Assembly (NCBI GenBank): GCA_965656375.1
Contig: CBFHKH010000001.1
Location: 13,432-77,431 of the forward strand
Reading direction: 5' to 3'
Source: Minisyncoccia bacterium
Lineage (GTDB): Bacteria > Patescibacteriota > Minisyncoccia > Phycocordibacterales > UBA9973
Length of the DNA stretch: 64,000 bases
A program made the position numbers and the translations under genes. Positions 9,115 to 42,562 of the stretch are shown one piece after another. Under the pieces are notes generated by a model. The model had not been told where the DNA came from. It was given only the letters and a program-made list of their open reading frames with translations, and ran no database searches. Numbering within the stretch: position 1 is the first letter of the stretch; each line of letters begins with the position of its first letter.

Positions 9115-9200
9115 CGCCACGAACTATATGTTTATAAAGTGTGGATAACCGTAATCTCTTTGTGTTGCTAAATATGCACATATCTGGGATACTAAAGTAT

Positions 9201-9882: not shown

Positions 9883-10860
9883 GTGAACTTACATACATAT
9901 AAAAAAATAGTTTTCTCAATTGGGGTATTTGCGCTTTTTTCAATAGCCGGAGGATTGATATACGCCGCTGAGAGGACAACCATAACAACTGAAGATTTCA
10001 ATGACTTCGTTGTAGAACCAGGTAGAACTGAAGTGCTTCTTGATCCTGGTCAGCATATTACAAAATACGTAAGTATTACGAACCGTATTAACAAAACTGT
10101 TAACTATGTTCTTACGAAAGAGGACTTAGTTGGAAGTAACGATCCTGATTCTCCGGTTAAACTTCTTGGTAATGAAACAGGACCATATTCTCTAAAAGAT
10201 TTTATAACTCCTGAGATAAATACTTTTAGCCTTAAATTCGGAGAGAAGATTACTATTGCTGTTGATATTTCAGTACCAGAGAAAGCTGAACCACGCGGAC
10301 ATTACGGCGCGCTTATCATTTCTACAACACCAAGTCTTAATGCAGATGGAACAGTCGCTGAAGAAGCAAAAGGAGGTGCACGTATTGTTTCGCGTATTGG
10401 CTCACTGTTTCTCGTTAAGGTAAATGGAGAGGGAAGACAAGAAGCATCGCTTCATGATTTTAAAACAATTGGTCCAAAGCGGTTAATTTTTAGCCATCCA
10501 CCAGAGGGTTTTGAAGTTGCACTTAAAAATACTGGTACGGTTCACCTTGTTCCGTACGGTACAGTAACAATTAAGAACATGGTAGGAAAGACTGTTGATA
10601 TACTACCGATAAATGCATATTTCTCACTTCCAGATTCAATACGATATATACAAACGCCGTGGGATAAAAAATTTGGTTTCGGCCGGTATACCGCTGATCT
10701 ATCGCTCTACCGTGGGTATGAGGGTGAAAACTTAGAATCGAAAATCGCCTTTTGGATTCTTCCATGGAAGATAATAATTCTTGCTATTGTCGTAATATTG
10801 ATCTTAGTTTCTATCTTCTATTATATTTCTACTCGATTTGAACTTAAAAAGAAAGGCTAA
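9883..10860 (+). CDS. DUF916/DUF3324-like cell-surface protein with an N-terminal signal peptide and a C-terminal TM anchor plus basic tail
   Basis: GTG start. The architecture is signal peptide, Ig-like region, second domain, then C-terminal anchor. The Ig-like region is FVVEPGRTEVLLDPGQ...YVSITNR...GHYGALI. The anchor FWILPWKIIILAIVVILILVSIFYYISTRFELKKKG is typical of WxL-locus CscA-type anchors. Confidence 0.5.
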   Translation: MNLHTYKKIVFSIGVFALFSIAGGLIYAAERTTITTEDFNDFVVEPGRTEVLLDPGQHITKYVSITNRINKTVNYVLTKEDLVGSNDPDSPVKLLGNETGPYSLKDFITPEINTFSLKFGEKITIAVDISVPEKAEPRGHYGALIISTTPSLNADGTVAEEAKGGARIVSRIGSLFLVKVNGEGRQEASLHDFKTIGPKRLIFSHPPEGFEVALKNTGTVHLVPYGTVTIKNMVGKTVDILPINAYFSLPDSIRYIQTPWDKKFGFGRYTADLSLYRGYEGENLESKIAFWILPWKIIILAIVVILILVSIFYYISTRFELKKKG

Positions 10861-10870
10861 TTCTACTGTG

Positions 10871-13604: not shown

Positions 13605-13692
13605 ATCACCCATATATCTACGTGTGGATAACTTAATCTTTTTATTAGCATAAAAAGATTATTTTAGCTATACTGTATATAGTTATTTTTGT

Positions 13693-13739
13693 TATATCGT
13701 CTATCCGATACACTCATTCTTTCTATATCGTCTATCCGA
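13693..13739 (+). promoter_or_regulatory. Two exact 16-nt direct repeats, tatatcgtctatccga, with starts 31 nt apart, upstream of the HTH / giant-protein operon. Candidate operator or promoter element.
   Basis: Repeats at 13693-13708 and 13724-13739 lie in the AT-rich 160-nt intergenic region before the ATG at 13765. Confidence 0.3.
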
Positions 13740-13764: not shown

Positions 13765-14121
13765 ATGGAATCTCTTAAAAAAATTATAAATTTAAGCGAA
13801 GCAGCAAAAATGAGCGGCTATACTCAAGACTATTTGGGCTATCTGATTCGCACGGGCGAGATGAAAGGCAAGAAGCTTGGTAGGAACTGGGTCACCACTC
13901 AGGAAGAACTCAATAATTACATTTTTAAGAGAAAAATTCGCCAAAATGAGCTCGCGTTAAACTATTTTGTCTCAAAGCGCCGTATCAAAAGTATCATCAC
14001 TATTTCTATTATCTTACTGATTATAGTCACCTCGATAGTGATGGTTTCTCAAAGCGAGAAAACTCCTGTCACGCTTCAAACTGAACTTTCGAATACGGTG
14101 GAAGCAACAACTACTAATTAA
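13765..14121 (+). CDS. Small excisionase/MerR-type HTH (HTH_17-like) DNA-binding protein with a C-terminal TM segment
   Basis: The HTH region LSEAAKMSGYTQDYLGYLIRTGEMKGKKLGRNWVTTQEEL matches the HTH_17 pattern. The C-terminus is hydrophobic (IITISIILLIIVTSIVMV). The stop codon is 2 nt before the giant gene's start. Confidence 0.5.
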   Translation: MESLKKIINLSEAAKMSGYTQDYLGYLIRTGEMKGKKLGRNWVTTQEELNNYIFKRKIRQNELALNYFVSKRRIKSIITISIILLIIVTSIVMVSQSEKTPVTLQTELSNTVEATTTN

Positions 14122-14123
14122 TA

Positions 14124-17100
14124 ATGGAATCTTTAATTAAAAACGTAAAAAAAACTGTTGTTAAAAAAAAGATCTCTGTAGTATTTCTTGTGCTACTCAT
14201 AGTTTTCTCAATCTCATACTCCGCTACGAACGCAGCATTTAATAAACAAATAAATTACCAAGGAAAACTTACAACATCTGTAGGGGTGGCTGTTGCAAAT
14301 GGAACATATAACATGGAGTTCAAACTCTATACTGTAAGTTCTGGTGGAACTGCTGTATGGACAGAAACAAGAACTGGTGCTGATAAAGTTCAAGTGACAA
14401 GCGGACTTTTCTCAGTACTTCTTGGTGAAGTAACATCACTCTCAGGAGTCGACTTCAATCAGACGCTTTATCTAGGAGTCAACATCGGAGGTACTGGTTC
14501 TCCAGCTTGGGATGGAGAAATGACTCCACGAAAAAAATTGGGTGCTGTACCTGCTGCAGTAGAAAGTGAACGGGTGGGTGGCTTTACACCTGCGCAATCA
14601 GCGAGTGGAAGTCAAATCCCAGTGCTCACATCTGATGCGATTATTTTAAGTGGTAGCGCAGCAGGCCTTACTGGCACATCTGCAAATGTTCTCAAGCTTC
14701 AAGGTGGATCGACGGGCGATATACAGTTTTTTGGAGCAACAAATAAAATTTCAAATGCTGGTATGCTTACACTTGCTGGAGGCATTACTGTCACGCCCTT
14801 CACTGCTGCAAACGGCGTCGTCTATGCCACAAGTTCTGGGGTACTTACACAAACTGCTGCATCATCCGGTGCATCATGTCTCATCTCAGCATCGGCTGGT
14901 GCTGCACCGACGTGGGGAGCGTGTACGGCTGGAGGATACTGGTCCCGTTCTGGAACCACAGTCAGTCCGAGTACAATTACCGATAAAGTAAATATCGGCA
15001 ATGCAACAGATCAGGGAAGTTACATATTGCAAGTCACCGGAGATCAGTACCTCGATGGAAAACTTCATCTAAAAAATACTGATATTCAAGAAATGGGAAC
15101 GCGATCCATTTCAATCGGGGCAGATATACCAAGTGTCACGGACAGCTTCTTTTTTGGACAAAATGCTGCAACTTCTGCAACTGGAGCGAGCAACTCAAAT
15201 TTTTTAGGTAACAACGCAGGATATACTGCTACGTATGCTCAAAACTCAAACTTTTTGGGCAATAGAGCAGGGTACGCTGCAACTTCTGCAAGTGGTTCAA
15301 ATTTCTTTGGTTATAGTGCTGGAGAAAGCGCATCCTCTGCAAGTGGTTCAAATTTTTTTGGTACTAGTGCTGGAAACGGAGCTACTAGCGCTGCCGAATC
15401 GAACTTCCTAGGCTCATATGCAGGCGGCAGTGCGTCGTCAGCTTCATTTTCAAACTTTTTAGGATACGCAGCCGGCTATCAGGCAACGAGCGCACTCCGC
15501 TCAAACTTTTTCGGTAATAGCGCAGGACAAGGTGCTTCAAATGCGTCGTATTCAAATTTTATAGGATACTTGGCTGGAAAAACTTTTTCGGGAAATAATG
15601 TCGGGTCAAACAATATAATCATCGGTACCAACATTTCTCTTCCAAATGCTGCTGCAAATTCCATCAATATCGGAGGAATCCTTTTTGGAACCGGTACCTA
15701 TGCAACTACGACAGGTAATGCATCGATTGTTCCAGTTGCGGCAGGAAATATTGGTATCGGCGTAGTATCCCCGACAGCTCGCCTTCATCTTGCAGCAGGT
15801 ACTGCCACTGCAAACACTGCTCCGCTTAAATTTACAACTGGTACGGCACTTACCACGCCTGAAGACGGATCAGTAGAATATCACAGCTCACACTTATACT
15901 TTACAATTGGTTCGACTCGATATCAGCTTGACCAACAAGCAGCCGGAGGAGGAGTGCATCTTGATCAGATAGCTGCAGCGCTTGCTTCTAATGGATCGGG
16001 TATTGATAACTTAAACTATGCACAAACCTGGAATTGGTCTACCGCTACAACTCAAACCCCACTCACACTCACTGCAAACGGTTTAACAACGGGAAGTATC
16101 CTCTCCCTTACTTCAAGTTCTGCTTCAGCAACAACTGGTCAGAAAGGATTGAATGTTGCACTTACTGGTGCACTCACTGGAGCACAGACAACCTATGGTG
16201 GATATTTCTCAAATGCTCGTACTGGTGCAAGTGCGGTTAATGTCGGTCTCTATGCAACTGCATCGGCAGCAGGTACAAACTATGCTGCAATCTTTGATCA
16301 AGGGAATGTGGGGATTGGGACGACGACACCTGCTTCTAAATTAGATATTGCGGGAACCATTACTACCAACGGAGACACTGTCTCAAATCTGGTAGCCACG
16401 GTGAGTAATATGAATGGCGGTACTCTATATGGTTCAAAGATTGCGCTCACTGCTGGAAGCGGTGCAGGTGCAGGTGGGGCGATTGTAGCAAATAACATCA
16501 GTACGACCTTGTCTGGAACTACCAACTTACCAAGTAGTATTGTTGGTTTGGCAACTCAGACTAATCACGGAGCGGCGTCAGGTACCCTCACAAACCAGGT
16601 TGAATATCAGACAGGACCTTCAGTGACAGGTGGTGCGACAACGACAACATTGCAGCATATCAGCTTGAGAGATGTCTTTACTTCAACAGGAGGTACGGTT
16701 ACCAACCAATACGGCCTGTACATCAATGGATTAACTGCCGCAGCTACTAACTACGGCATATATTTTGCAAACACACCCAATGGTGGCTCGATTACTTCTG
16801 GTGCTTCAACAGACATCGCAATTATACCTGGTGCTGGTGGCAACGTCGGTATAGGTGACACAACTCCAGCGTCACTCTTCACCGTCGGTTCAGGTGACCT
16901 ATTCCAGATCAACTCTTCTGGTAATGTCGCTGCTATAGGCGGCGCGGCACATACGATTGCAAATTCTTCTGGTGCACTCAGCATTGATGCTGCATCCTCA
17001 GGTGCCTTGAATTTGAACAACACAGGAACCGGCGACGTTCTCCTTGCAGGAGGTTCAGCAGCAACAGGTTGTACGGTTGCAAACTCAACTGGAAACCTCA

Positions 17101-20100
17101 CGTGTTCTGGTAACATCATCGGTGGAACTACTGGTACTATCGGCTACTGGGCACGTAACAATTCTACTTTTACCCTCACTCCTGCAACTGCAAACGACAT
17201 AATTTCAATTTCAACAAATTTAACCACTGCATCCAACAAAGCAATCGAAGGCCTCCAGACTGGCGCGACATCTGGCACGGACTACGCCGGCTATTTCTCA
17301 AACACTGGCGCAGCCACAACAAATGTTGGTTTGTATGCGACTGCAAGTGGAGGAACGAACAACTACGCAGCGATATTTGACCAAGGGAATGTTGGGATTG
17401 GGACAACGACACCAAATGCTTCATATGAATTACAAATAGGAAATGGTTCAGGGTCAGCTACAGGGCGAATCCTTCTTAGTGGAAATGGTGATGATGAACA
17501 TATAATGTTTGCTAATAGTGGAGGTAACCGCTTTCGGATTGGTCAAAACGGAACGGTTCTTGGCTTCGTAAGCCAAGGAACTGGTGTTGGAGGTGTCGGG
17601 CAGTCATTCTTATTTACTGGTGGTACTCCTGATACGAGTCACCAAGGTTCCTTGTTTAAGATAAGTGGTACATTTAATCAGGCAGCACAGGTAACTGATG
17701 GCTTGCTTGTAAATATTACTAACACTGCTTCAGCTGCTGGTTCGAGTCTTGCTAATTTCCAAATCGGAGGCTCTTCAAAATTCTTTATTGATGCCAATAA
17801 CGGCAACGTCGGTATCGGGACGGCAACACCAGGACAAAAATTACAAGTTGAAGGTGATGTTAGTATCACTCGTTCATCGTTTTCTAGTACTCATCAAATT
17901 CAAATAAACAATGGAGGTAATACTATCGGTATCGGTTTTAATTCACCTGTCTCAACTCTCGACATTATTGGTTCAAGTGGAAGCCAGGCATACATTGTTT
18001 CTAATAATGCTGCGCTTAATGTCGGTAACCGCTCAACGGGACCAATTAATTTTGTCACACAGAGCGCTTCAGGAACAAAATGGCAAATAACTTCAGCTGG
18101 TAACTTTATTACTGGTGCTGACAACAGTTACGATATAGGAGCAAGTGGTGCAACAAGACCTAGAACTGGATATTTCGGTAGCACTGTCGTTGTAGGTGCA
18201 TCTCAAATTAAAACACTCTCATCAACAGGCTATTATGTGGCTACGAGGGGTTCATTGCAAAATCCATCTGATGGTGTTTGGCTAATTACTGATGCAGCTG
18301 AAACAAGTTTCGGTCGCCTTCAACTTGGCGGGACTACATCTAGTTTCCCAGCAATCAAGCGAAACGGTACAGCAATAAACTTCAGGCTCGCTGATGACTC
18401 GGCCGACACTACAATCACCGCATCTGGCGCGACGCTCTCGACAGCTCCGACTACTTCTGCGGGAAGTTACGACATCATCACTCGAAACTCTTCAACTGGA
18501 GTATTAGAAAAAATATCTAGCACTGCTATGCCAGGTGGATCAGGTACCACAAACTATGTTGCTCGTTGGACGGGAACAAATACACTTGGCACTGGAGTAC
18601 TCTATGATAACAATACAAGTGTTGCTATTAGTGATACATCGACTGATAGTGTCGGGGCAAAATTATTCGTTAATGGTGCAATCTCGGCAGTAGGAACTAT
18701 CAGATCATTTGCTGCGAAAGATACTTATAATGTTGCTATCAGTTCAAACAGTATCAATGCCTATAACTATACTAACCCTAGCGGCCAAGGACTCAGTATT
18801 TTGAATGTGAGTACGGGGAATCTCGCTTTAGTAGGCGGAGGCGGAAACGTTGGCATCGGCAATGCTTCCCCATCGGGACTTCTCTCGCTCGCTGGCAACC
18901 GTACTGCTTTAGCGTGGGGCACAACAGGTATTAATTTTCAGACTGCTGCAGCGACTTACACTGACAGTTCGTCTTCAGGAACAGTTGCAAGCGTAGTTGC
19001 AAATTCTTTTGGAGTTCCAACATTCGCAGCATCATCAGCGACGACATACACTGCTGCATCAAATGTCTACATCGCTGGAGCACCAAGTGCTGGGACTAAT
19101 GTCACGATCACAAAAGGATACGCGCTTGATGTTAATGGTCCAACAAGAATAAAAACAAACTCTGGAAGCGCAACAGGACTAACGCTCACAAGTACTGGAA
19201 CTATAAACTGGAGATTTGGAAATGTGGCGACAAATGATTTTGGTCTATTTGCTCCAACAAGTGCAGGTGGAGAAGTTGCACTCCTTAACTTTACAGATTA
19301 TACCGACGCTTCTGTGCCAGTTTTGAGATTTGGAGGAGGTATTGCTGCATATGGATTCAATCCATATTGGGGCATTAATACAACGGGTGCAGGTACAAAC
19401 TATAGTAGTGATTTTGTTGTGAAGTCTTTTGGATCAACTCATGTGACTTCGGTTTCTAATTCCTCGAATGTACTTACACAGTGGGTTAATAGTAATGGTG
19501 ATGGATACTTTGCAGGCAACGTAGGTATTGCGAATACAAGTCCGACAGCGAAGCTTGATATAACATCGACCCAGACAGCGACAGCGAACAGCCAAGTGCT
19601 CGGAGTCAATCTAACAGGAACACTTACTGCACGTGCTACTGCGTCAGATACGCTCTATTCGATGCGCAACACTCAAGTATTAACTGCTGCGGCGAACAAT
19701 CAAAATCTTGTCGGATTGTCTATTGCTCCTACTTATTCTTTAGGAGCTTTTACTGGAACAACTATGTTCCCCCTTGATGTTGTAGGCTCTGCAGGCGCAA
19801 GAGTTAGAGTCAAAGCATTATCAAACGGCAATGTTGAATTACAAGTAGGTGATCCTACAGGAGGTGGCAATGGTGGCAATATAAGATGGTTACGTCCTTC
19901 TGGTGGCGCAGATGGACCAACAATATCTTTCGGTAATGCTGACTTAGCTTTCGATAATCCAGGTTATGGAGGATTTGTATTTACCGCTACTTTAGGAGCT
20001 TCTATGTCTGTATTAAAATTAACAAATACTCCTTATGCAGCAGGTACAGCTACAACTAATCATCCATTATTTTATAGAAATGGCGGTACAGCACCGACGA

Positions 20101-23100
20101 CATGGAGTACAGCCGGTACGTACGACGGATGGAACGCGGTATCTGGATTTACTGGGAACTTCTTGGATGCTCACGTAAACGGAGGAGCGAGTGTCTTCAG
20201 TGTCGACTACACTGGCAAGGTCAATGGCTCAGGGGCGAATTTCTCTGGTCTCACCGCATCATCTGCTGTCTATACAGACGGTTCAAAAAATCTCACCTCA
20301 AGCGCGCCAAGTTCTGGCACCATCGGTTACTGGGCGCGAACTGGAACTCAACTTTCACCTGCATCAATTGGTGACGAAGTAAATATTGGAAATACAACTG
20401 ATCAAGGTGCGTATACACTTCAGAATACAGGGAACTTTTATAATAGTGGCTCAATCGTACAAGTCAGTCCAAGCTTCACAGGTACTCACACCATTGCGTT
20501 TAGTGCTAACAATCAAATAACTTTTACAAATAGTGGAATCGGTGCGTACATGGTAGTAGGAGCAGGTAACTTTGTTGACTTCCAGGGGCAGTCAGTTAGA
20601 TCTACTGGTCGTGGATATATTGCGGGCTCAACAGTAGCAGGAACTTCTCCATTTTCTATAAGCACTGTTCCGGCACAATCATCTGGTACGACTGATAACA
20701 ACTCAATATCAATTACTCAGACGATAAACAACACTGGAACATATTCTGGAGTGTATCGAGGATTTTACTACAATCCGACACTTACATCCCTCACTGGTAC
20801 GACACATCGAGCAATTGAAACGGTAACAGGCGATGTAATCTTAGGTAGTACTAGTGGTAATGTTGGAATCGGGAACCCTACTCCTTTTAGCGGTGCAACT
20901 GTCGCACCATCACTAGAAATCGGAACAACAGGCACAGCAAGTGGTAACCTTATTGTTCGAGGATTTTCAGCACTTGGCAGTACACAAGCTAACGGTTTTG
21001 GTGCGGTTGGTTCAAACTACTATTTGGATTCTTCTAATGCTATACGCAGAAAAAATGGAGATTTCGTATCTGTCCTTGAGTTTCCATCAGGAGGATTTGC
21101 ATTCAAAACATCAGGGAATGGGGCAGCTAACTCTAGTGTGTCACTAACAACTCTCTGGAATATTGCAGCAAGTGGAAATATTACCGCTGGTACTGATAAT
21201 GCATATGATATCGGCGCAAGTGGAGCGAACCGAGCAAGGGACTTCTTTTTAGGAAGAGATGCGGTAATAGGTAGGAACTTTACTATTACAAACGGAAATA
21301 TAAATGCAACGAGTTCTCTCACATCTATAGCAGGTTCAGGTAACGGAAATCTATTTACAACAAATCATACAGTCAATACTTCAGCCTCATATCTTGGTAC
21401 GAACTTCCTTTCAAATGTATCCACTGCTTCAGGTGCCGGTGGAACTGTTGTTGCCCAGCAAGCAACAGTAAACTACTCTGCAACAGCAAATCATATTTCA
21501 GGTATAACTGGGTATCAAATTGATGTTAATCATACGGGTAGTGGAACATTATCGTCTGTATCAGGATTGGTTTCTCAAGGATTTGTTGGAAACAGTGCAA
21601 CAGTATCAAATTATTATGCATTTAAAACACTCGGATTGTTTACCCCGGCGACAGGTGCGGTCACTACTCAGTACGGATACTATTATGACCAAGCATATAT
21701 CACACCTGGTATAGGCTACGCATTTTATTCAAAAGTAAATCCGTCAGGAGGAACACTTGCATCTGCTGCTTCAACTGCTATTAGTATTATCCCTGGTAAT
21801 AGTATTATTCAGATTGGAGGTCAAACCTCCTCATTTCCAGCGTTAAAGCGAAACGGTACGGCAATAAACTTCAGATTGGCGGACGATTCTGCAGATGCGG
21901 CGATCACTGCTTCTGGTGCTACATTCTCTGGCCTTGGAGGTGGGGGTACTCAATGTGTGCAGACAAACAATACGGGAGTACTCTCGGCAGCAGCGTGTGG
22001 TGGAGGTGCGACTCGTCTCGATCAAATCACTGCTGCAACAGGAACTAACAGTATCGACTCGCTCAACTTCGATCAAACATGGAATTGGTCCACTGCTTCT
22101 ACCAGCAGTCCAATGACGCTCACTGCAAACGCTCTTTCGAGTGGCTCACTTCTCACACTTTCTTCAAATAGTACACAGGCAAGTGGAGGTAGCCAGTCAT
22201 TATTGAAAATTGATCTTTCAGGTGCGAATGCAAATACTGGAGAATCTACTTTTGGTGCTAATATATCGAACGGTCACACTGGGACTTCGGGAACTAATTA
22301 TGGAGTAAATTCTATTGCGTACGGTGGGGATACTAATTACGGTTTGTATGCTAGTGGATCTGGAAACGGAACTCAGAATATCGGTGTTGGCGCTGATGCG
22401 TATACTACTAACAATGCTACGGAAAATATTGGACTCATGGCTACTGCTTCAGGAGGTCTGCTAAATTACGCTATCATTGTCCCTCCTACCTACGGTAATG
22501 TTGGTATCGGAAATAGTGCTCCAGGAAGTTTACTTACTGTAGGTTCATCATCACAGTTTAGTGTCACCTCTGCTGGTGTAACCACTATTACTGCATCAAG
22601 TTCCAGTGCATTTACTGTTGCAAAGACTGGAACTAATTATGCGCTCCAAGTTGATACATCAACCGGTTCTGCGGTAACAGGGCTCAAGATTAAAAATAAC
22701 GCAGCCACCGGTGGTGTAGCACTCTCAGCTATTTCTTCAGGTACCAATGAATTCCTCACACTCGACGCAAAAGGAACAGGTGAAGTTCGTATTGGTGGTA
22801 TCTCTACGGGCGACGTTCTCCTTGCAGGAGGTTCAGCAGCAACAGGTTGTACGGTTGCAAACTCAACTGGAAATCTGACCTGTTCCGGCAACATCATCGG
22901 TGGAACTACTGGTACTATCGGCTACTGGTCTCGCTCAGGTACTACACTTACTCCTGCAACAGGAAATGATATCCTCTCAATCCCAACTACAAATACATCT
23001 GGTGCAGACCTTGCAATCACAAACACTGGTGCATATACAGGTACAGGAATATTCAATCTCACTGCAAACTCAGCAACGACGGGTACACTTGCGAGTATTT

Positions 23101-25289
23101 CATCATCATCACTGACCTCAGGTATGCTTGCAAAATATCTTCTCTCAGGATCATCAGCAGTTGCTACTGCCGCAAATTCTGGTTCTATTGCGACATTTGC
23201 TTCAACTGCGACTGGATTTACCGCTGCAACGCAGGCACTTGTCGCCGTGAATTCAAGTGGAACAAACGGAACTACTGGTGTAACAATTCAAGGTATTAAT
23301 TCTACGGTGACGAATGCAGGTACTACGAGTACCAATGTTGCGGGCTTCTTCAGTGCATCAGGTGGAACGAACAACTATGCGCTTATCGTGCCTTCAGGAG
23401 GAGGAAGAGTGGGTATAGGAACAAGTACTCCAACTGCTACGCTCTATGTCACTCAAGCTGCTATGACCTCAGTCGGTTCAGGAAGCGGTACGAACAATAT
23501 TGCGCCGCTTACGATTCTTGGAGGAGCAGGCGGTGCTACTTCTGCAACGTCAGGAACGGTGTTTGGAGGTAATGCTGGTGCTATAAATCTTACTGGTGGA
23601 AATGGTGGAGCTATTACTGGTACCCCAGGTACAGGCTTCGGTGGTAACGGAGGAACGATTAATCTTACTGGAGGAGATGGAGGACTCGGTACGACATTTG
23701 GTGGAGCTGGTGGAAACGTCGAAATTGCAGCTGGCGTTGGAGGATTTTCAACCGGTGTATCAGGAGTGGGAGGATATGCTGCACTTAAAGGAGGGAATGG
23801 TGGCTCGACGAATGGGACTGGTGGCAATGTCTACTTGATCGGTGGAGCAAAAAGTGGTTCTGGATCCGACGGTAATATCTACTTGAATGTTTCACCATCA
23901 CTCACTGTCCGCGGACTCACTGGTATCGGTACAACAAACGCAGTCTATCGTCTTGATGTTCTCAATGACGCCGCAGGACAAACTACATCAAATCGCATCG
24001 CGAACTTCTCAAATGCTGGAGCAACATTCAATACAACGAGTGGAGCGCTCTTGTCCTATGGAGGATATTTCTCCTCGACATCAACTCGATCAACCGGAGC
24101 AAATGATTTGAACAACGTAGCTCTCTATGCGACTGCTTCTGGTGCGCAGAATAACTACGCGGCGATCTTTGATCAGGGAAATGTTGGTATCGGAACCGCA
24201 ACTCCGAACACCTCTTTGCATATCCTTGGCACTCCAAACGTTAATGCTGGTCTCCTTAAGTTACAGGCAAAGACGGGAAGCGGCGAAGATGATGCTGGCA
24301 TCACCTTTTTTGCCATGCCGTCAGGCGCAGATACCAACTCCCGCAACTGGCAGATCGCAAATAACTACCAAGCATACGGCAACTTGGATATAATGCGTAG
24401 CACTTCTAATACAGGGAATCCTACTACTGCTGTCGCATCGTTTGATATGAACGGTAACTTCGGTATCGGTGATACAACACCGGACTACTTGCTTGATGTT
24501 GCTAACACAGGAGTAGACAATAATATCTTTTCTTTAACAGACTCGGACGGAGAGTGTCTCTATAATCCAGAGGCTGGTTCAGTCACGGTTACGTGCTCAT
24601 CAGATGAGCGTCTAAAGAATAATATTGTTGATGCTCCTTCGGCGCTTGCATACTTTAAATCATTCAAAATAAGACAATACAACGTTAGAGCATCTGGTGA
24701 CAGAATGATTGGAGTCATTGCACAAGAAGTATTACAAACAAACCCAGAGCTTGTAACAGTGAGCCCAAGTGGAATGTACTCAGTGCAGTTGCCGAGTCAG
24801 TGGCAAGTAGTGGGAGCGTTACAAGAACTCGATCTTAAAATCGCAGGACTTTCATCGCTTGATACGATGAATAATAATTCGATAGGATATTTAATTAAAA
24901 GCTTTTTGGCCGATGTAGGGAACACTATAGAGAGTATATATGCAAAAGTAATTCATTCTGACCGTATTGAGACGAAAACGCTTTGTGTTGGAAGTACGTG
25001 TGTTACTGAAGAGCAATTCTTGCAAATGGTACAGGGAGCTGGCGGTCAAAATTCTGGTGGTGGAAATGGTGGCAGTGGAGGAGGAAATCTGCCACCAACT
25101 CCACAGACCGACGTCTGTCCAAATATAGATGGTGATCAAGCTATCGTTCCAGATGAAATGCATATTGATCAAGACAACAATTGTGTAGCAAATCCGTCTA
25201 CAGAGGGGGGTGAATCAACTCCTCCAGCTACAGATGGCGAAAGCACAGGTGACGGGGAAAGTACACCACCAGTTACTGACGGGCAATAG
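14124..25289 (+). CDS. Giant (3,721 aa) Gly/Ser/Thr/Asn/Ala-rich surface fiber-like protein. It has an N-terminal signal/anchor, beta-helix-type repeats and a C-terminal phage tail-spike-type intramolecular chaperone (peptidase S74) autocleavage domain.
   Basis: A single uninterrupted 11.2 kb ORF. The N-terminal hydrophobic segment is ISVVFLVLLIVFSI. There are tandem 17-aa SNF(L/F)G..AG repeats. The motif GN(V/I)GIGTTTP...KL recurs at least 10 times. There are Gly-rich GGNGG stretches. The C-terminus carries CSSDERLKNNIV...IGVIAQEVLQTNPELV. Confidence 0.8.
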   Translation: MESLIKNVKKTVVKKKISVVFLVLLIVFSISYSATNAAFNKQINYQGKLTTSVGVAVANGTYNMEFKLYTVSSGGTAVWTETRTGADKVQVTSGLFSVLLGEVTSLSGVDFNQTLYLGVNIGGTGSPAWDGEMTPRKKLGAVPAAVESERVGGFTPAQSASGSQIPVLTSDAIILSGSAAGLTGTSANVLKLQGGSTGDIQFFGATNKISNAGMLTLAGGITVTPFTAANGVVYATSSGVLTQTAASSGASCLISASAGAAPTWGACTAGGYWSRSGTTVSPSTITDKVNIGNATDQGSYILQVTGDQYLDGKLHLKNTDIQEMGTRSISIGADIPSVTDSFFFGQNAATSATGASNSNFLGNNAGYTATYAQNSNFLGNRAGYAATSASGSNFFGYSAGESASSASGSNFFGTSAGNGATSAAESNFLGSYAGGSASSASFSNFLGYAAGYQATSALRSNFFGNSAGQGASNASYSNFIGYLAGKTFSGNNVGSNNIIIGTNISLPNAAANSINIGGILFGTGTYATTTGNASIVPVAAGNIGIGVVSPTARLHLAAGTATANTAPLKFTTGTALTTPEDGSVEYHSSHLYFTIGSTRYQLDQQAAGGGVHLDQIAAALASNGSGIDNLNYAQTWNWSTATTQTPLTLTANGLTTGSILSLTSSSASATTGQKGLNVALTGALTGAQTTYGGYFSNARTGASAVNVGLYATASAAGTNYAAIFDQGNVGIGTTTPASKLDIAGTITTNGDTVSNLVATVSNMNGGTLYGSKIALTAGSGAGAGGAIVANNISTTLSGTTNLPSSIVGLATQTNHGAASGTLTNQVEYQTGPSVTGGATTTTLQHISLRDVFTSTGGTVTNQYGLYINGLTAAATNYGIYFANTPNGGSITSGASTDIAIIPGAGGNVGIGDTTPASLFTVGSGDLFQINSSGNVAAIGGAAHTIANSSGALSIDAASSGALNLNNTGTGDVLLAGGSAATGCTVANSTGNLTCSGNIIGGTTGTIGYWARNNSTFTLTPATANDIISISTNLTTASNKAIEGLQTGATSGTDYAGYFSNTGAATTNVGLYATASGGTNNYAAIFDQGNVGIGTTTPNASYELQIGNGSGSATGRILLSGNGDDEHIMFANSGGNRFRIGQNGTVLGFVSQGTGVGGVGQSFLFTGGTPDTSHQGSLFKISGTFNQAAQVTDGLLVNITNTASAAGSSLANFQIGGSSKFFIDANNGNVGIGTATPGQKLQVEGDVSITRSSFSSTHQIQINNGGNTIGIGFNSPVSTLDIIGSSGSQAYIVSNNAALNVGNRSTGPINFVTQSASGTKWQITSAGNFITGADNSYDIGASGATRPRTGYFGSTVVVGASQIKTLSSTGYYVATRGSLQNPSDGVWLITDAAETSFGRLQLGGTTSSFPAIKRNGTAINFRLADDSADTTITASGATLSTAPTTSAGSYDIITRNSSTGVLEKISSTAMPGGSGTTNYVARWTGTNTLGTGVLYDNNTSVAISDTSTDSVGAKLFVNGAISAVGTIRSFAAKDTYNVAISSNSINAYNYTNPSGQGLSILNVSTGNLALVGGGGNVGIGNASPSGLLSLAGNRTALAWGTTGINFQTAAATYTDSSSSGTVASVVANSFGVPTFAASSATTYTAASNVYIAGAPSAGTNVTITKGYALDVNGPTRIKTNSGSATGLTLTSTGTINWRFGNVATNDFGLFAPTSAGGEVALLNFTDYTDASVPVLRFGGGIAAYGFNPYWGINTTGAGTNYSSDFVVKSFGSTHVTSVSNSSNVLTQWVNSNGDGYFAGNVGIANTSPTAKLDITSTQTATANSQVLGVNLTGTLTARATASDTLYSMRNTQVLTAAANNQNLVGLSIAPTYSLGAFTGTTMFPLDVVGSAGARVRVKALSNGNVELQVGDPTGGGNGGNIRWLRPSGGADGPTISFGNADLAFDNPGYGGFVFTATLGASMSVLKLTNTPYAAGTATTNHPLFYRNGGTAPTTWSTAGTYDGWNAVSGFTGNFLDAHVNGGASVFSVDYTGKVNGSGANFSGLTASSAVYTDGSKNLTSSAPSSGTIGYWARTGTQLSPASIGDEVNIGNTTDQGAYTLQNTGNFYNSGSIVQVSPSFTGTHTIAFSANNQITFTNSGIGAYMVVGAGNFVDFQGQSVRSTGRGYIAGSTVAGTSPFSISTVPAQSSGTTDNNSISITQTINNTGTYSGVYRGFYYNPTLTSLTGTTHRAIETVTGDVILGSTSGNVGIGNPTPFSGATVAPSLEIGTTGTASGNLIVRGFSALGSTQANGFGAVGSNYYLDSSNAIRRKNGDFVSVLEFPSGGFAFKTSGNGAANSSVSLTTLWNIAASGNITAGTDNAYDIGASGANRARDFFLGRDAVIGRNFTITNGNINATSSLTSIAGSGNGNLFTTNHTVNTSASYLGTNFLSNVSTASGAGGTVVAQQATVNYSATANHISGITGYQIDVNHTGSGTLSSVSGLVSQGFVGNSATVSNYYAFKTLGLFTPATGAVTTQYGYYYDQAYITPGIGYAFYSKVNPSGGTLASAASTAISIIPGNSIIQIGGQTSSFPALKRNGTAINFRLADDSADAAITASGATFSGLGGGGTQCVQTNNTGVLSAAACGGGATRLDQITAATGTNSIDSLNFDQTWNWSTASTSSPMTLTANALSSGSLLTLSSNSTQASGGSQSLLKIDLSGANANTGESTFGANISNGHTGTSGTNYGVNSIAYGGDTNYGLYASGSGNGTQNIGVGADAYTTNNATENIGLMATASGGLLNYAIIVPPTYGNVGIGNSAPGSLLTVGSSSQFSVTSAGVTTITASSSSAFTVAKTGTNYALQVDTSTGSAVTGLKIKNNAATGGVALSAISSGTNEFLTLDAKGTGEVRIGGISTGDVLLAGGSAATGCTVANSTGNLTCSGNIIGGTTGTIGYWSRSGTTLTPATGNDILSIPTTNTSGADLAITNTGAYTGTGIFNLTANSATTGTLASISSSSLTSGMLAKYLLSGSSAVATAANSGSIATFASTATGFTAATQALVAVNSSGTNGTTGVTIQGINSTVTNAGTTSTNVAGFFSASGGTNNYALIVPSGGGRVGIGTSTPTATLYVTQAAMTSVGSGSGTNNIAPLTILGGAGGATSATSGTVFGGNAGAINLTGGNGGAITGTPGTGFGGNGGTINLTGGDGGLGTTFGGAGGNVEIAAGVGGFSTGVSGVGGYAALKGGNGGSTNGTGGNVYLIGGAKSGSGSDGNIYLNVSPSLTVRGLTGIGTTNAVYRLDVLNDAAGQTTSNRIANFSNAGATFNTTSGALLSYGGYFSSTSTRSTGANDLNNVALYATASGAQNNYAAIFDQGNVGIGTATPNTSLHILGTPNVNAGLLKLQAKTGSGEDDAGITFFAMPSGADTNSRNWQIANNYQAYGNLDIMRSTSNTGNPTTAVASFDMNGNFGIGDTTPDYLLDVANTGVDNNIFSLTDSDGECLYNPEAGSVTVTCSSDERLKNNIVDAPSALAYFKSFKIRQYNVRASGDRMIGVIAQEVLQTNPELVTVSPSGMYSVQLPSQWQVVGALQELDLKIAGLSSLDTMNNNSIGYLIKSFLADVGNTIESIYAKVIHSDRIETKTLCVGSTCVTEEQFLQMVQGAGGQNSGGGNGGSGGGNLPPTPQTDVCPNIDGDQAIVPDEMHIDQDNNCVANPSTEGGESTPPATDGESTGDGESTPPVTDGQ
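15194..15601 (+). repeat. Eight tandem in-frame 51-nt (17-aa) coding repeats, S-N-F-(L/F)-G-x-x-A-G-x-x-A-T/S-x-A-x-x, inside the giant gene
   Basis: The units SNFLGNNAGYTATYAQN, SNFLGNRAGYAATSASG, SNFFGYSAGESASSASG, SNFFGTSAGNGATSAAE, SNFLGSYAGGSASSASF, SNFLGYAAGYQATSALR, SNFFGNSAGQGASNASY and SNFIGYLAGKTFSGNNV follow one another directly. Confidence 0.7.
17031..17150 (+). repeat. 120-nt intragenic segment duplicated at 22809-22928 at about 96% nt identity (copy A)
   Basis: Both copies encode GDVLLAGGSAATGCTVANSTGNLTCSGNIIGGTTGTIGYW. There are 5 mismatches in 120 nt. Confidence 0.75.
22809..22928 (+). repeat. Copy B of the 120-nt intragenic duplication
   Basis: See copy A. A second, more diverged duplicated module at about 80% nt identity pairs 18343-18435 with 21831-21925 (SSFPA(I/L)KRNGTAINFRLADDSAD..ITASGAT). 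Confidence 0.75.
24590..25000 (+). other. C-terminal intramolecular chaperone / autoproteolysis domain (peptidase S74, phage endosialidase / tail-fiber type) of the giant protein
   Basis: It matches the conserved core S-D-x-R-L-K-x-N-I...(A)QEV...P..V and the following helical segment (LQELDLKIAGL...IESIYAKV). By analogy the scissile Ser is expected directly before DERLK. Confidence 0.6.
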
Positions 25290-39989: not shown

Positions 39990-39998
39990 TATATTTTT

Positions 39999-40730: not shown

Positions 40731-40733
40731 TAT

Positions 40734-42561: not shown

Positions 42562-42562
42562 C

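What the first reader, a model, noticed from the sequence alone, without database searches (positions are those of the whole stretch)
14124..25289. 3,721-aa cellular giant fiber protein ending in a phage tail-spike-type self-cleaving intramolecular chaperone (S74) module, outside any prophage
Seen in sequence: one 11.2 kb ORF with an N-terminal signal/anchor. It has tandem 17-aa SNF(L/F)G..AG repeats, at least 10 copies of a GN(V/I)GIGTTTP...KL(D/H)(I/V) motif, and Gly-rich GGNGG stretches (about nt 23500-23890). The C-terminus carries CSSDERLKNNIV ... IGVIAQEVLQTNPELV ... LQELDLKIAGL. Established knowledge: the S-D-x-R-L-K-x-N-I plus (A)QEV block is the signature of C-terminal intramolecular chaperone domains (peptidase S74) of phage K1F endosialidase, T5 L-shaped tail fibers and Bacillus phage neck appendages. 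Those domains drive beta-helical trimer folding and then excise themselves at the Ser before DxRxK. Inference: here the module caps a chromosomal, non-phage protein wedged between trmD and rpoB; no capsid, terminase, tail or integrase genes lie nearby. The protein therefore looks like a trimeric, self-processing surface fiber. In a reduced (possibly episymbiotic CPR) genome such a fiber is a strong candidate for host or surface attachment. The Cys-containing acidic tail (ESTPP repeats) after the chaperone would be released with it.
Basis: partly seen in the sequence, partly recalled or inferred. Interest (0 to 1): 0.9.

Follow-up and report, generated by a model that had tools for sequence, protein, structure and literature searches.

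The report
Giant self-cleaving surface fibre, CPR bacterium
An ultrasmall, probably symbiotic (Nomurabacteria-like) bacterium encodes a 3,721-residue surface fibre built like the prey-recognition fibres of the predator Bdellovibrio, capped by a phage-type chaperone predicted to cut itself off, and the gene sits in a conserved pilus-like gene cassette, not in a prophage.

Summary
Its C-terminus matches Pfam Peptidase_S74 above threshold, with the SDxxxK Ser/Lys pair (S3493/K3498). All other genes identified in the 64 kb are housekeeping or cell-envelope types, none phage-like, and the genome is Candidatus Nomurabacteria-like (CPR).

The protein is not an orphan. Three regions match the Bdellovibrio "mosaic adhesive trimer" (MAT) fibres described in 2024:
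- the N-terminal Ig-like domain;
- the GNVGIGxxxPxxKL body modules;
- the S74 cap.

A profile search finds about 122,000 cluster representatives. The top hits are giants of 2,000-7,900 aa, many with the same N-domain and S74 layout.

The gene is also the last, hypervariable member of a conserved six-gene cassette: two pilin-like proteins (one PamT-like), a membrane-anchored chaperone-like protein, an fn3/TM protein, an HTH-TM protein, then the fibre. I found this cassette in four other Paceibacterial genomes.

Best reading: a Sec-exported homotrimeric adhesin fibre that folds from its C-terminal chaperone, then releases a 24 kDa fragment. It probably serves host or surface attachment.

This is a new variant of a known kind.

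The parts
14124..25289 (+). Giant fibre gene, 3,721 aa (370.5 kDa precursor)
   Evidence: ORF list and translation; mass
14172..14228 (+). The only hydrophobic segment (aa 17-35). Probably a Sec signal peptide or signal anchor, with a possible cleavage site near TNA|AF.
   Evidence: Hydropathy scan. No lipobox or prepilin motif seen in the sequence. SignalP was not available.
14232..14570 (+). Conserved N-terminal Ig-like beta-sandwich domain (aa 37-149), a remote homolog of the Bdellovibrio MAT N-domain. Presumed to retain or dock the fibre on the cell.
   Evidence: NCBIfam NF053851 at E 7.9e-6 and 1.4e-6, below cutoff. 39 of 48 CPR homologs also hit it. AF2 pLDDT above 90 over model residues 11-110 (aa 39-138). 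54-59% identity among cassette fibres.
15195..15605 (+). Eight tandem 17-aa SNF(L/F/I)G..AG repeats (aa 358-494). This module is shared with shorter CPR S74 fibres. Its fold is unassigned.
   Evidence: (D3). No PDB sequence match.
15744..24449 (+). Fibre body: a mosaic of beta-helix-type modules, each carrying a GNVGIGxxxPxxKL(x)V loop motif (10 strict copies), with large internal duplications (for example aa 602-1103 resembles aa 2620-2975).
   Evidence: Motif scan. Internal duplications. A profile of the protein's own modules hits only the five Bdellovibrio MAT fibre structures in the PDB: 8OND 2.4e-12, 8OML 9.6e-7, 8OJN 7e-4.
23499..23891 (+). Gly-rich GGNGG/GGAGG stretch (aa about 3126-3256) within the fibre body
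24450..24599 (+). Conserved distal tip just before the cleavage site (aa 3443-3492: GNFGIGDTTPDYLLDV...DSDGECLYNPEAGSVTVTCS) with the Cys3478/Cys3491 pair. It would become the new C-terminus after processing.
   Evidence: Alignment with CPR homologs. C3478 is invariant and C3491 is at least 90% conserved.
24600..24755 (+). Peptidase_S74 core (aa 3493-3544). Predicted catalytic Ser3493 (nt 24600-24602) and Lys3498 (nt 24615-24617). Predicted scissile bond Ser3492|Ser3493.
   Evidence: Pfam PF13884, 32-35 bits against cutoff 22. S, D, R, K and AQE are invariant. The T5 pb1 precedent is the Thr1263-Ser1264 bond with the Ser1264/Lys1269 pair.
24600..25286 (+). Whole fragment predicted to be released (aa 3493-3721; 229 aa, 24.1 kDa, pI 4.2). 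It comprises the S74 core, two long helices, a conserved LCVGSTCVTEEQF Cys-hairpin (nt 24972-25034), a Gly linker and an acidic ESTPP tail (nt 25041-25286).
   Evidence: AF2 model, pLDDT 88-97 over model residues 91-170 (aa 3493-3572). Foldseek hit to the MyRF ICA domain 7DC3 at E 1.2e-4. Cys-hairpin motif conserved in CPR homologs. Mass.
9141..9860 (+). Cassette gene A: secreted pilin-like beta-rich protein (true start probably the ATG at 9201). Paralog of gene B.
   Evidence: (41% identity to the L085 ortholog)
9883..10860 (+). Cassette gene C: protein with an N-terminal signal and a C-terminal TM helix plus an RFELKKK tail. This is the architecture described for the membrane-anchored Pam chaperones PamC/D. 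There is a very weak WxLIP_PGBD hint.
   Evidence: PF06030, E 0.079; 47% identity; 428 homologs of about 320 aa
10838..11647 (+). Cassette gene B: secreted pilin-like protein, a distant PamT (CPR pilus tip pilin) homolog (true start probably the ATG at 10871).
   Evidence: Three orthologs hit NCBIfam NF058579 at E 2e-11 to 4e-10, below cutoff. The window copy is 53% identical to one of them but gave no direct hit.
11655..13604 (+). Cassette gene D: signal peptide, an fn3-like region, a Cys/Pro-rich linker, TM helices and a CarboxypepD_reg domain. The N-half is orthologous to the 354-440 aa gene D of other cassettes. The C-half is 45% identical to the gene just upstream of two S74 fibre genes in CP064973.
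13677..13738 (+). Tandem 31-nt direct repeat in the putative promoter region of the HTH-TM and fibre gene pair
   Evidence: (D7)
13765..14121 (+). Cassette gene H: 118-aa protein with an excisionase-type HTH and one TM helix. Its stop codon lies immediately before the fibre ATG. It is conserved at this position in three other cassettes.
   Evidence: (4 of 4 members hit TIGR01764 weakly)

Best explanation
The gene encodes a cellular, non-phage surface fibre of the MAT type (mosaic adhesive trimer).

Inferred sequence of events:
1. The 370 kDa precursor is exported by Sec through its single N-terminal hydrophobic segment.
2. Its conserved Ig-like N-domain keeps it on the cell, either by binding a cell-surface partner or through an uncleaved anchor.
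3. Three chains fold into a long, intertwined beta-helical fibre. Folding is nucleated from the C-terminal S74 intramolecular chaperone.
4. Once the trimer is correctly formed, Ser3493, activated by Lys3498, cuts the Ser3492|Ser3493 bond.
5. A 229-aa, 24 kDa acidic fragment leaves, and a conserved disulfide-stapled tip is exposed.

Scaling from the Bdellovibrio Bd3182 model (about 550 A for a mature chain of about 780 aa), the mature fibre of about 3,450 aa could reach roughly 0.2-0.25 um. That is about the diameter I recall for a CPR cell (own knowledge, not checked here).

The gene is the last, hypervariable member of a conserved cassette that also encodes two pilin-like proteins (one PamT-like), a membrane-anchored chaperone-like protein, an fn3/TM protein and a small HTH-TM protein. 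The fibre is therefore most likely one component of a multi-protein attachment apparatus that this episymbiont-type bacterium uses to contact a host cell or surface.

Shown here: the domain homologies, conservation of the catalytic residues, the non-phage context, conservation of the cassette, and variability of the fibre body.

Inferred: export, trimerisation, cleavage, fibre length, and the adhesion role.
For: - S74 cap: Pfam PF13884 is above threshold at aa 3493-3544. S3493, D, R, K3498 and AQE are invariant in 16 homologs.
- Family profile against solved structures: it hits Bdellovibrio MAT fibres (8OND 1.7e-31, 8OML, 8OJN, 8OL4, 8ON4), MyRF ICA (7DC3, 3e-14), T5 pb1 (8HQZ) and the phi29 appendage chaperone (3GUD).
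- C-terminal model: it matches MyRF ICA by Foldseek at E 1.2e-4 and K1F CIMCD 3GW6 at E 0.07.
- Body modules: a profile of the protein's own modules matches only MAT fibres in the PDB.
- N-domain: it hits NCBIfam Bdello_MAT_N at E 1e-6, as do 39 of 48 CPR homologs.
- MAT architecture and S74 autoproteolysis are experimentally established for Bd3182 (PMC10769870) and for T5 pb1 (PMC4690869).
- Extracellular location: there is a single N-terminal hydrophobic segment. The 14 Cys residues form 7 close pairs. A DsbA-like gene lies in the window.
- Context: the window is housekeeping and cell-envelope genes throughout.
- Cassette: it is conserved and collinear in L085-L088, with fibres of 997 to 3,910 aa. 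These share only the N-domain, at 54-59% identity. One of them lacks S74.
- PamT-like hits for cassette gene B.
- A 'tail fibre-like protein' gene is reported to co-localise with CPR pam pilus operons (bioRxiv 10.64898/2026.03.03.709456).
Against: - No experiment or multimer model supports trimerisation or cleavage of this particular protein.
- The MAT_N hit is below NCBI's family cutoff (26-28 bits against 60) and covers only about half of that profile.
- Single-sequence searches of the protein against the PDB find nothing. All structural links need profiles.
- The tip just before the cleavage site is conserved among CPR homologs rather than variable. That is not what a specificity-determining tip would show.
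- No ligand-binding or enzymatic domain was identified.
- The 229-aa released part is longer than phage chaperones (133 aa in T5), and its extra Cys-hairpin and acidic tail have no explanation.
- The CPR envelope differs from that of Bdellovibrio, so how the N-domain is retained is unknown.
Confidence: 0.72

Rival explanations
1. The fibre is not a free-standing adhesin. It is instead the distal or accessory component of a Pam-like pilus built by donor-strand exchange. Its Ig-like N-domain would be docked onto, or polymerised with, the co-encoded pilin-like proteins. The membrane-anchored chaperone-like protein would assist, and the fn3/TM protein would tether the whole structure.
For: - The six-gene cassette is strictly collinear in five genomes.
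- Gene B orthologs hit the PamT model at E 2e-11 to 4e-10.
- Gene C has a signal peptide plus a C-terminal TM helix, as described for PamC/D. Gene D has an fn3-like region plus TM helices, as described for PamR.
- The only part conserved among the cassette fibres is the N-domain.
- The MAT paper states that the N-domain's surface partner is unknown.
- The Pam preprint reports a co-localised tail-fibre-like gene.
Against: - The PamT hits are far below the model's cutoff (about 40 bits against 240), and the window's own copy gave no hit.
- No PamA, PamB, PamC or PamD model matched any cassette protein.
- Pam pilins are reported mainly in Saccharimonadia and Microgenomatia, not in Paceibacteria.
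- A threefold-symmetric fibre does not obviously fit a linear donor-strand polymer.
Confidence: 0.25
2. It is an ordinary phage tail fibre or tailspike gene, left in a prophage or phage remnant.
For: S74 chaperones and the GNVGIG-type modules also occur in phage tail fibres (8JOV, 8HQZ, 6F45, 3GUD). NCBI names homologs 'tail fiber domain-containing protein'. The trmD-rpoB junction is variable among relatives.
Against: - No phage structural, lysis or integrase gene was found among the ORFs screened anywhere in the 64 kb.
- PHROGs gives only one weak, unannotated hit.
- The same cassette and fibre sit among housekeeping genes in four other genomes.
- Shorter CPR S74 genes are likewise embedded among housekeeping genes.
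- The protein has a Sec-type N-terminus and a cellular MAT-type N-domain. That domain has no significant match in the viral structure library.
- GC content is like that of the neighbouring rpoB and rpoC genes.
Confidence: 0.02
3. It is an enzymatic tailspike-like protein: a surface-bound polysaccharide depolymerase that degrades host capsule or cell wall, as endosialidase does, rather than a passive adhesin.
Against: No glycosidase, lyase or peptidase family other than S74 was detected. This held for the whole protein and for eight overlapping 600-aa pieces at E up to 1 in Pfam and NCBIfam. The composition is Gly/Thr/Ser/Ala/Asn-rich and repetitive, as in fibre shafts.
Confidence: 0.08

Closest known systems
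Bdellovibrio bacteriovorus MAT (mosaic adhesive trimer) fibre proteins, S74 subgroup, e.g. Bd3182 (Caulton et al. 2024, PMC10769870; PDB 8OJN, 8OND, 8OML)
   Same: - Both are cellular, non-phage proteins.
- Both have an N-terminal export signal followed by a conserved beta-rich N-domain (NF053851 hit).
- Both have a long shaft of beta-helix modules carrying the (G)NVGIGxxxPxxKL capping-loop motif.
- Both end in an S74 chaperone with SDxxxK.
- In both families the N-end is conserved while the body and tip are mosaic and variable, and some members lack S74.
- Both hosts live on other cells.
   Different: - This protein is 3,721 aa. The Bdellovibrio HD100 MATs cited in the paper are 626-1,151 aa (typically about 1,000), and the longest MAT listed from any organism is 1,915 aa.
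- The host is a CPR bacterium. No CPR member appears in the MAT paper's list of other taxa.
- The N-domain match is below NCBI's family cutoff.
- It has extra SNFxG 17-aa repeats and a Gly-rich block.
- The released C-terminal part carries an extra Cys-hairpin and an acidic tail.
- It is encoded in a conserved cassette with pilin-like and chaperone-like genes.
Phage C-terminal intramolecular chaperone domains (Peptidase S74): K1F endosialidase (3GW6), T5 L-shaped tail fibre pb1 (4UW8/8HQZ), phi29 neck appendage gp12 (3GUD)
   Same: The Pfam family is the same. The Ser and Lys at +5 are the same. The domain sits at the C-terminus, after a trimeric beta-helical region. It is predicted to be removed after folding.
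   Different: This one is not in a virion protein or a prophage. The fibre is secreted by a cell. The released fragment is longer (229 aa against 133 aa in T5). Sequence similarity is detectable only with profiles.
Eukaryotic MyRF ICA domain (7DC3)
   Same: It is the best structural match of the C-terminal model (Foldseek E 1.2e-4) and a profile hit at 3e-14. It is another example of the S74 module working outside phages.
   Different: MyRF is an ER-membrane transcription factor that the domain releases. It has no fibre shaft and a different biological role.
CPR Pam pilus operon of Ca. Mycosynbacter amalyticus (Troman et al. 2026, bioRxiv 10.64898/2026.03.03.709456)
   Same: The upstream cassette has a PamT-like gene, a second pilin-like gene, a protein with a signal peptide plus C-terminal TM helix like PamC/D, and an fn3/TM protein like PamR. 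The preprint notes a tail-fibre-like gene co-localising with pam operons.
   Different: Only PamT is detectable by sequence, and only weakly. PamA and PamB major pilins were not found. The lineage differs (Paceibacteria rather than Saccharimonadia or Microgenomatia). The ATP synthase neighbourhood described for pam operons is absent here. The fibre itself is not characterised in that preprint.

Membership tests
Peptidase S74 / C-terminal intramolecular chaperone domain (CIMCD) | Profile match to Pfam PF13884 above the gathering score | tested here: met
   32 bits for the whole protein and 34.8 bits for the C-terminal piece, against a cutoff of 22. Covers aa 3493-3544 and profile positions 1-57 of 58.
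Peptidase S74 / C-terminal intramolecular chaperone domain (CIMCD) | Catalytic Ser with Lys five residues downstream (SDxxxK) | tested here: met
   S3493-D-E-R-L-K3498. S, D, R and K are invariant in 16 aligned homologs. The spacing equals Ser1264/Lys1269 of T5 pb1 and the SDxxxK motif of the MATs.
Peptidase S74 / C-terminal intramolecular chaperone domain (CIMCD) | Fold like the solved chaperone domains | tested here: inconclusive
   The monomer AF2 model has pLDDT 88-97 over the core. Foldseek gives MyRF ICA 7DC3 at E 1.2e-4 (TM 0.28-0.44) and K1F 3GW6 at only E 0.07. The family profile hits 7DC3, 8HQZ and 3GUD by sequence. No trimer model could be made.
Peptidase S74 / C-terminal intramolecular chaperone domain (CIMCD) | Trimerisation-dependent autoproteolytic release | not testable with these tools
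   Needs expression with and without S3493A, or proteomics.
MAT (mosaic adhesive trimer) fibre family | Signal peptide followed by the conserved beta-rich N-domain of about 130 aa | tested here: inconclusive
   NF053851 Bdello_MAT_N gives E 7.9e-6 and 1.4e-6, 26-28 bits, which is below the cutoff of 60. It covers profile positions 2-78 of 162. 39 of 48 CPR homologs hit it, best 1.9e-9. The AF2 model is an Ig-like sandwich with no significant PDB match, as reported for the MAT N-domain. The homology is real, but family-level membership is not reached.
MAT (mosaic adhesive trimer) fibre family | Shaft of beta-helix modules with the V-G-G/N-x-x-x-P-x-x-x-L capping-loop motif | tested here: met
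   A profile of the protein's ten modules hits Bd2133 (2.4e-12), Bd1334 (9.6e-7), Bd3182 (7e-4) and two more MAT structures, and nothing else in the PDB.
MAT (mosaic adhesive trimer) fibre family | Variable C-terminal tip: either an S74 domain or an alternative adhesive domain | tested here: met
   S74 is present here. Cassette orthologs vary from 997 to 3,910 aa, and one lacks S74.
MAT (mosaic adhesive trimer) fibre family | Surface-exposed homotrimer that binds the partner cell | not testable with these tools
   No multimer prediction or experiment was available.
CPR Pam pilus operon | PamT tip pilin | tested here: inconclusive
   Gene B orthologs in L085, L086 and L087 hit NF058579 at E 4e-10, 1.7e-9 and 2.2e-11 (37-44 bits against a cutoff of 240). 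The window copy gave no hit but is 53% identical to the L085 copy.
CPR Pam pilus operon | Major pilins PamA/PamB, and PapD-like chaperones PamC/D with a C-terminal TM helix | tested here: inconclusive
   No cassette protein gave a Pam-named NCBIfam hit other than PamT. I did not verify that NCBIfam holds models for PamA-D. Gene C has the described topology of signal peptide plus C-terminal TM helix. Its fold was not predicted.
Prophage-encoded tail fibre | Adjacent phage structural, packaging or integration genes | tested here: not met
   The window ORFs screened against Pfam/NCBIfam are housekeeping, envelope or unassigned; a few of 100-200 aa were not screened. No phage family was hit. Orthologous cassettes also lie among housekeeping genes.

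The most novel reading that the evidence does not exclude
The cassette encodes a hybrid appendage. A Pam-like (chaperone-usher-like, donor-strand-exchange) pilus or membrane anchor would dock the conserved Ig-like N-domain of a phage-type, S74-matured trimeric fibre. The conserved five genes would form a universal socket. The hypervariable fibre gene of 1,000-3,900 aa would be the exchangeable host-recognition cartridge of Paceibacterial episymbionts. This would also identify the long-sought surface partner of the MAT N-domain.
Probability: 0.25. Interest if true: 0.8.

Novelty: new variant of a known kind. Interest (0 to 1): 0.58.

Why it matters
How most CPR/Patescibacteria recognise and hold on to their hosts is largely unknown. 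Only type IV pili and the newly described Pam pili have been examined in cultured Saccharibacteria and relatives (own knowledge; consistent with the abstracts listed).

This locus shows that a Nomurabacteria-like genome of about 0.84 Mb spends 1.3% of its DNA on one fibre of the same design that Bdellovibrio uses to recognise prey. The gene's body is hypervariable between related genomes, while its N-domain and five partner genes are conserved.

That makes three things directly testable:
- a candidate host-range determinant for uncultured Paceibacteria;
- a candidate docking partner for the MAT N-domain;
- a possible functional link between Pam-like pili and tail-fibre-like proteins.

It also shows that the MAT and S74 design is very widespread in metagenomes, with about 122,000 cluster representatives hit and many giants of 2,000-7,900 aa. 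It is not a predator speciality.

The instance itself is not unique, and the general principle (cellular S74 fibres) has been published.

Tried and rejected
- A whole-protein homolog search timed out.
- The exact protein, and the exact 325-aa neighbour, are not on record in the contig index. The source record could therefore not be inspected. Only an 840,184-bp contig length is known.
- Single-sequence phmmer of the whole protein, of the S74 region and of the SNF-repeat region against the PDB found nothing meaningful. Only profiles worked.
- Pfam and NCBIfam scans of eight overlapping 600-aa pieces at E up to 1 added no domain beyond S74 and MAT_N.
- PHROGs gave only one weak unannotated family.
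- The afdb50 fold library was unavailable, so the N-domain could not be compared with AlphaFold models of Bdellovibrio MATs. PDB and viral fold searches of the N-domain gave only generic Ig-like matches.
- Literature searches for S74 or intramolecular chaperones in CPR/Patescibacteria returned nothing relevant.
- The prophage explanation was considered and rejected on context.
- Assembly collapse was considered and rejected because the DNA repeats are only 60-80% identical.
- No cassette protein gave a Pam-named NCBIfam hit other than PamT.


Full report

Yes. The window has a single ATG-initiated ORF at 14124-25289 (+) of 3,721 codons. The product is 15% Gly, 13% Thr, 12% Ser, 11% Ala and 8% Asn. 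Each listed feature checks out:
- One hydrophobic segment, aa 17-35, after a Lys-rich start.
- Eight tandem 17-aa SNF(L/F/I)G..AG repeats at aa 358-494.
- Ten strict G[NRS][VI]GIG motifs between aa 541 and 3352, plus degenerate copies.
- A Gly-rich block at aa about 3126-3256.
- The C-terminal string ...TVTCSSDERLKNNIV...IGVIAQEVLQTNPELV...LQELDLKIAGL..., followed by Cys pairs and an acidic ESTPP tail.

The internal DNA repeats are only 60-80% identical, so I infer an assembly artefact is unlikely. The 14 cysteines fall into seven closely spaced pairs. A DsbA-like gene lies at 37457-38245. Both fit an extracellular, disulfide-bonded protein.

**2. The S74 module**

Pfam finds exactly one family in the whole protein. 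It is Peptidase_S74 (PF13884) at aa 3493-3544, covering profile positions 1-57 of 58. It scores 32 bits (34.8 bits on the C-terminal piece) against a gathering score of 22.

A search with the last 422 aa returned 75 homologs. Nearly all carry PF13884. The closest are named 'tail fiber domain-containing protein' from Candidatus Nomurabacteria, Paceibacterota, Pacebacteria and Moranbacteria. In an alignment of 16 of them, S3493, D3494, R3496, K3498 and the G..AQE block are invariant.

In T5 pb1, Ser1264 and Lys1269 have the same spacing, and the Thr1263-Ser1264 bond is cut (PMC4690869). In Bdellovibrio Bd3182 the SDxxxK motif self-cleaves, and S782A blocks cleavage (PMC10769870). By analogy, the predicted scissile bond here is Ser3492|Ser3493. 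The released fragment would be aa 3493-3721: 229 aa, 24.1 kDa, pI 4.2.

An AF2 monomer model of aa 3403-3659 has pLDDT 88-97 over the S74 core, followed by two long helices. Foldseek's best PDB match is the MyRF ICA domain 7DC3 (E 1.2e-4). The K1F chaperone 3GW6 follows at E 0.07.

The family profile hits, by sequence:
- five Bdellovibrio MAT fibre structures;
- a phage tail fibre (8JOV);
- MyRF ICA;
- a long tail fibre distal subunit (6F45);
- T5 pb1 (8HQZ);
- the phi29 appendage chaperone (3GUD).

**3. What the rest of the protein is**

Three independent regions point to the Bdellovibrio 'mosaic adhesive trimer' (MAT) fibres.

(a) N-terminal domain. NCBIfam NF053851 (Bdello_MAT_N) hits aa 28-106 at E 7.9e-6, and at E 1.4e-6 on the isolated domain. 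This is below the family cutoff (26-28 bits against 60). Of 48 CPR homologs of this N-domain, 39 hit the same model, best 1.9e-9. The AF2 model is a confident Ig-like beta-sandwich (pLDDT above 90 for about 100 residues). It has no significant PDB or viral-library match. The MAT paper reports the same for its N-domain.

(b) Body modules. A profile built only from this protein's ten GNVGIG modules hits Bd2133 (2.4e-12), Bd1334 (9.6e-7), Bd3182 (7e-4) and two more MAT structures, and nothing else in the PDB. The motif corresponds to the MAT 'capping loop' V-G-G/N-x-x-x-P-x-x-x-L.

(c) The S74 cap. Thirteen of the 21 Bdellovibrio MATs end in one.

The body is a mosaic with large internal duplications. 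Examples are aa 602-720 with 2620-2739, aa 901-1052 with 2786-2974, and aa 1399-1488 with 2562-2644. The SNF-repeat block is shared with shorter CPR S74 proteins but has no PDB sequence match.

**4. Organism and context**

RpoB (25489-28668) is 88-90% identical to Candidatus Nomurabacteria MAGs. All 80 related loci are Parcubacteria/Paceibacterota.

The ORFs screened in the window are housekeeping or envelope types:
- SMC, PGA_cap/VanY, polysaccharide deacetylase, RNase R, S16, trmD;
- rpoB, rpoC, dnaG, rpoD;
- a DsbA-like gene, glycosyltransferases, tRNA-Thr;
- EF-Ts, S2, ProRS, MreB/C, TGT, UvrA/B/C, Ddl.

No phage family was hit. PHROGs gives one weak unannotated hit.

The position of trmD relative to rpoB varies among relatives. 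In 46 of the 80 loci it lies within 1.3 kb upstream. In 17 the gap is 1.4-7.2 kb. Here it is 16.4 kb. The closest relative with long flanks (L002, 89% RpoB identity) has no fibre gene there. The region is thus a variable slot in a conserved backbone.

**5. A conserved cassette**

Five genes lie between trmD and the fibre gene:
- A: 239 aa, secreted, beta-rich.
- C: 325 aa, with an N-terminal signal and a C-terminal TM helix ending RFELKKK.
- B: 269 aa, a paralog of A (32% identity).
- D: 649 aa, with a signal peptide, an fn3-like region, TM helices and a CarboxypepD_reg domain.
- H: 118 aa, with an excisionase-type HTH and a TM helix. Its stop codon lies immediately before the fibre ATG.

The same order recurs in four other genomes:

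| Locus | Upstream genes (aa) | Fibre (aa) | Note |
|---|---|---|---|
| L085 | 214, 320, 246, 439 | 3,910 | S74 |
| L086 | 213, 326, 257, 440, 119 | 997 | S74 |
| L087 | 213, 323, 258, 354, 122 | 1,422 | no S74; directly after trmD |
| L088 | 213, 311, 224, 426, 121 | 3,533 | S74; same SMC-RNase R-S16-trmD context as the window |

Identity between the window proteins and their L085 orthologs is 41% for A, 47% for C, 53% for B and 31% for D. Protein C alone has 428 homologs, all about 320 aa, in Paceibacterota.

The fibres of these cassettes share only the N-domain (54-59% identity; HMM E 1e-54 to 1e-63). Their bodies are essentially unalignable.

Gene B orthologs hit NCBIfam NF058579, 'CPR-type pilus protein PamT', at E 2.2e-11, 1.7e-9 and 4e-10. 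This is well below that model's cutoff, and the window copy gave no direct hit.

The topologies of C and D match what a 2026 preprint describes for the membrane-anchored chaperones PamC/D and the fn3 anchor PamR of the CPR Pam pilus. That preprint also notes a 'tail fibre-like protein' gene consistently next to pam operons (bioRxiv 10.64898/2026.03.03.709456).

I therefore regard the cassette as a Pam-like surface-appendage operon with the fibre as its variable terminal gene. The Pam assignment is a lead, not a demonstrated membership.

**6. How common is this?**

A profile of the N-terminal region, which includes the first body modules, matched 122,136 cluster representatives at E<=1e-3. It matched 46,438 at E<=1e-10 and 6,373 at E<=1e-30.

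Of the 136 new sequences among the top 150:
- the median length is 2,884 aa and the maximum 7,920 aa;
- 108 have the N-domain near the N-terminus;
- 53 have S74 near the C-terminus;
- 41 have both.

Few carry names. One is from Candidatus Roizmanbacteria.

Shorter CPR S74 fibres (550-1,070 aa) have a different N-terminus (...NPxxPxxPxDNIQDPGDP...GCGPxDSNCYV). They occur in one to three tandem copies among housekeeping genes. A 3,131-aa one sits directly upstream of rpoB in a Minisyncoccia MAG (L054).

The MAT paper's list of MATs outside Bdellovibrio covers Oligoflexia, the PVC group, Micavibrio, Deltaproteobacteria, the FCB group and Omnitrophica. It goes up to 1,915 aa and includes no CPR. 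Full-text searches found no paper linking S74 chaperones with CPR.

**7. Most likely mechanism**

Shown here: the homologies, the conserved catalytic pair, the extracellular hallmarks, the non-phage context, and the pattern of a conserved cassette with a variable fibre.

Inferred from T5, K1F and Bd3182:
1. The protein is exported by Sec.
2. It is retained through the N-domain or an uncleaved anchor.
3. Trimerisation is nucleated from the C-terminus by the S74 chaperone.
4. Autocleavage at Ser3492|Ser3493 occurs only when the triple beta-helix is correctly formed.
5. The 24 kDa fragment is lost and the distal tip is unmasked.

In T5, removal of the chaperone is needed for receptor binding.

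Scaling from the roughly 550 A Bd3182 model gives a fibre of about 0.2-0.25 um. This is a rough inference.

A role in host or surface attachment is plausible from the MAT precedent and the CPR lifestyle, but it is untested.

Unexplained features:
- The tip just before the cut, with the Cys3478/Cys3491 pair, is conserved rather than variable.
- The released part carries an extra conserved Cys-hairpin (T..LC.G..C.TE.QL) and an acidic, low-complexity tail. Phage chaperones lack both.

**8. Verdict**

The claim of exceptional novelty does not. This is a large CPR member or variant of the MAT-type cellular S74 fibres, and one of many such giants in metagenomes.

What is new, and worth following, is the conserved Pam-like cassette around it, together with the clear 'constant socket, variable fibre' pattern in Paceibacteria.

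Scores: interest 0.58; novelty, new variant of a known kind.

Noticed in passing
window 13677-13738: There is a tandem 31-nt direct repeat (ATATAGTTATTTTTGTTATATCGTCTATCCG / ATACACTCATTCTTTCTATATCGTCTATCCG, 81% identical). It lies in the 160-bp intergenic region upstream of the HTH-TM gene and the fibre gene, just after a promoter-like site at 13645-13674. It could be an operator for the co-encoded HTH protein.
   Followed up: no
window 13765-14121 (+): A 118-aa protein with an excisionase-type HTH and one TM helix is conserved at the same position (119-122 aa) in three other cassettes. It appears translationally coupled to the fibre gene. Both proteins start with MESL. The role of a membrane-tethered HTH next to a surface-fibre gene is unexplained.
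   Followed up: partly
window 11655-13604 (+); L081 8093-9994: The 649-aa gene D looks like a fusion. Its N-half matches the 354-440 aa gene D of other cassettes. Its C-half (TM helices plus CarboxypepD_reg) is 45% identical to a 633-aa gene. That gene sits directly upstream of two tandem S74 fibre genes in Nomurabacteria genome CP064973. This suggests a functional link between that membrane module and S74 fibres.
   Followed up: partly
L054 220-9612 (Minisyncoccia MAG JBAQFI010000017): A second giant S74 fibre (3,131 aa, 14 GNVGIG motifs) lies directly upstream of rpoB in a distant relative (69% RpoB identity). It has a different N-terminus (ANPYNPGVTLDPDCLPGDLNCTV type), the same post-chaperone KVCVGSTCITEEELKALL hairpin, and a Pro/Glu/Thr tail. 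The slot upstream of rpoB seems to collect such genes repeatedly.
   Followed up: partly
window 8437-9114 to 25489 (trmD-rpoB junction): trmD lies within 1.3 kb of rpoB in 46 of 80 related loci. The gap holds 1.4-7.2 kb of variable cargo in 17 others and 16.4 kb here. No integrase, tRNA or flanking repeat marks the insertion in the window.
   Followed up: partly
window 37457-38245 (-) and 38748-43297 (+): A DsbA-like thioredoxin gene is followed by a cluster of family-2 glycosyltransferases and a 477-aa membrane protein. The membrane protein has a weak Alg9/PMT-like (Glyco_transf_22) hint at E 0.009. These could provide disulfide formation and glycosylation for Ser/Thr-rich surface proteins such as the fibre. 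This is pure speculation.
   Followed up: no
window 35628-37391 (+): A 587-aa protein with about eight predicted TM helices has no Pfam match. It lies just downstream of rpoD.
   Followed up: no
L084 (Logan SRR24908194 contig, 16.7 kb): One S74 homolog (P0012, 610 aa) sits on a plasmid-like contig with RepA, ParA, MobA/MobL, a TraG-type coupling protein, ParDE and an integrase. S74 fibres can therefore also travel on mobile elements outside phages.
   Followed up: no
window 9141-9860 and 10838-11647: The listed GTG and TTG starts of cassette genes A and B are probably too far upstream. Orthologs align from Met21 (nt 9201) of A and about Met12 (nt 10871) of B. Using those starts removes the apparent overlap of B with gene C.
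   Followed up: partly
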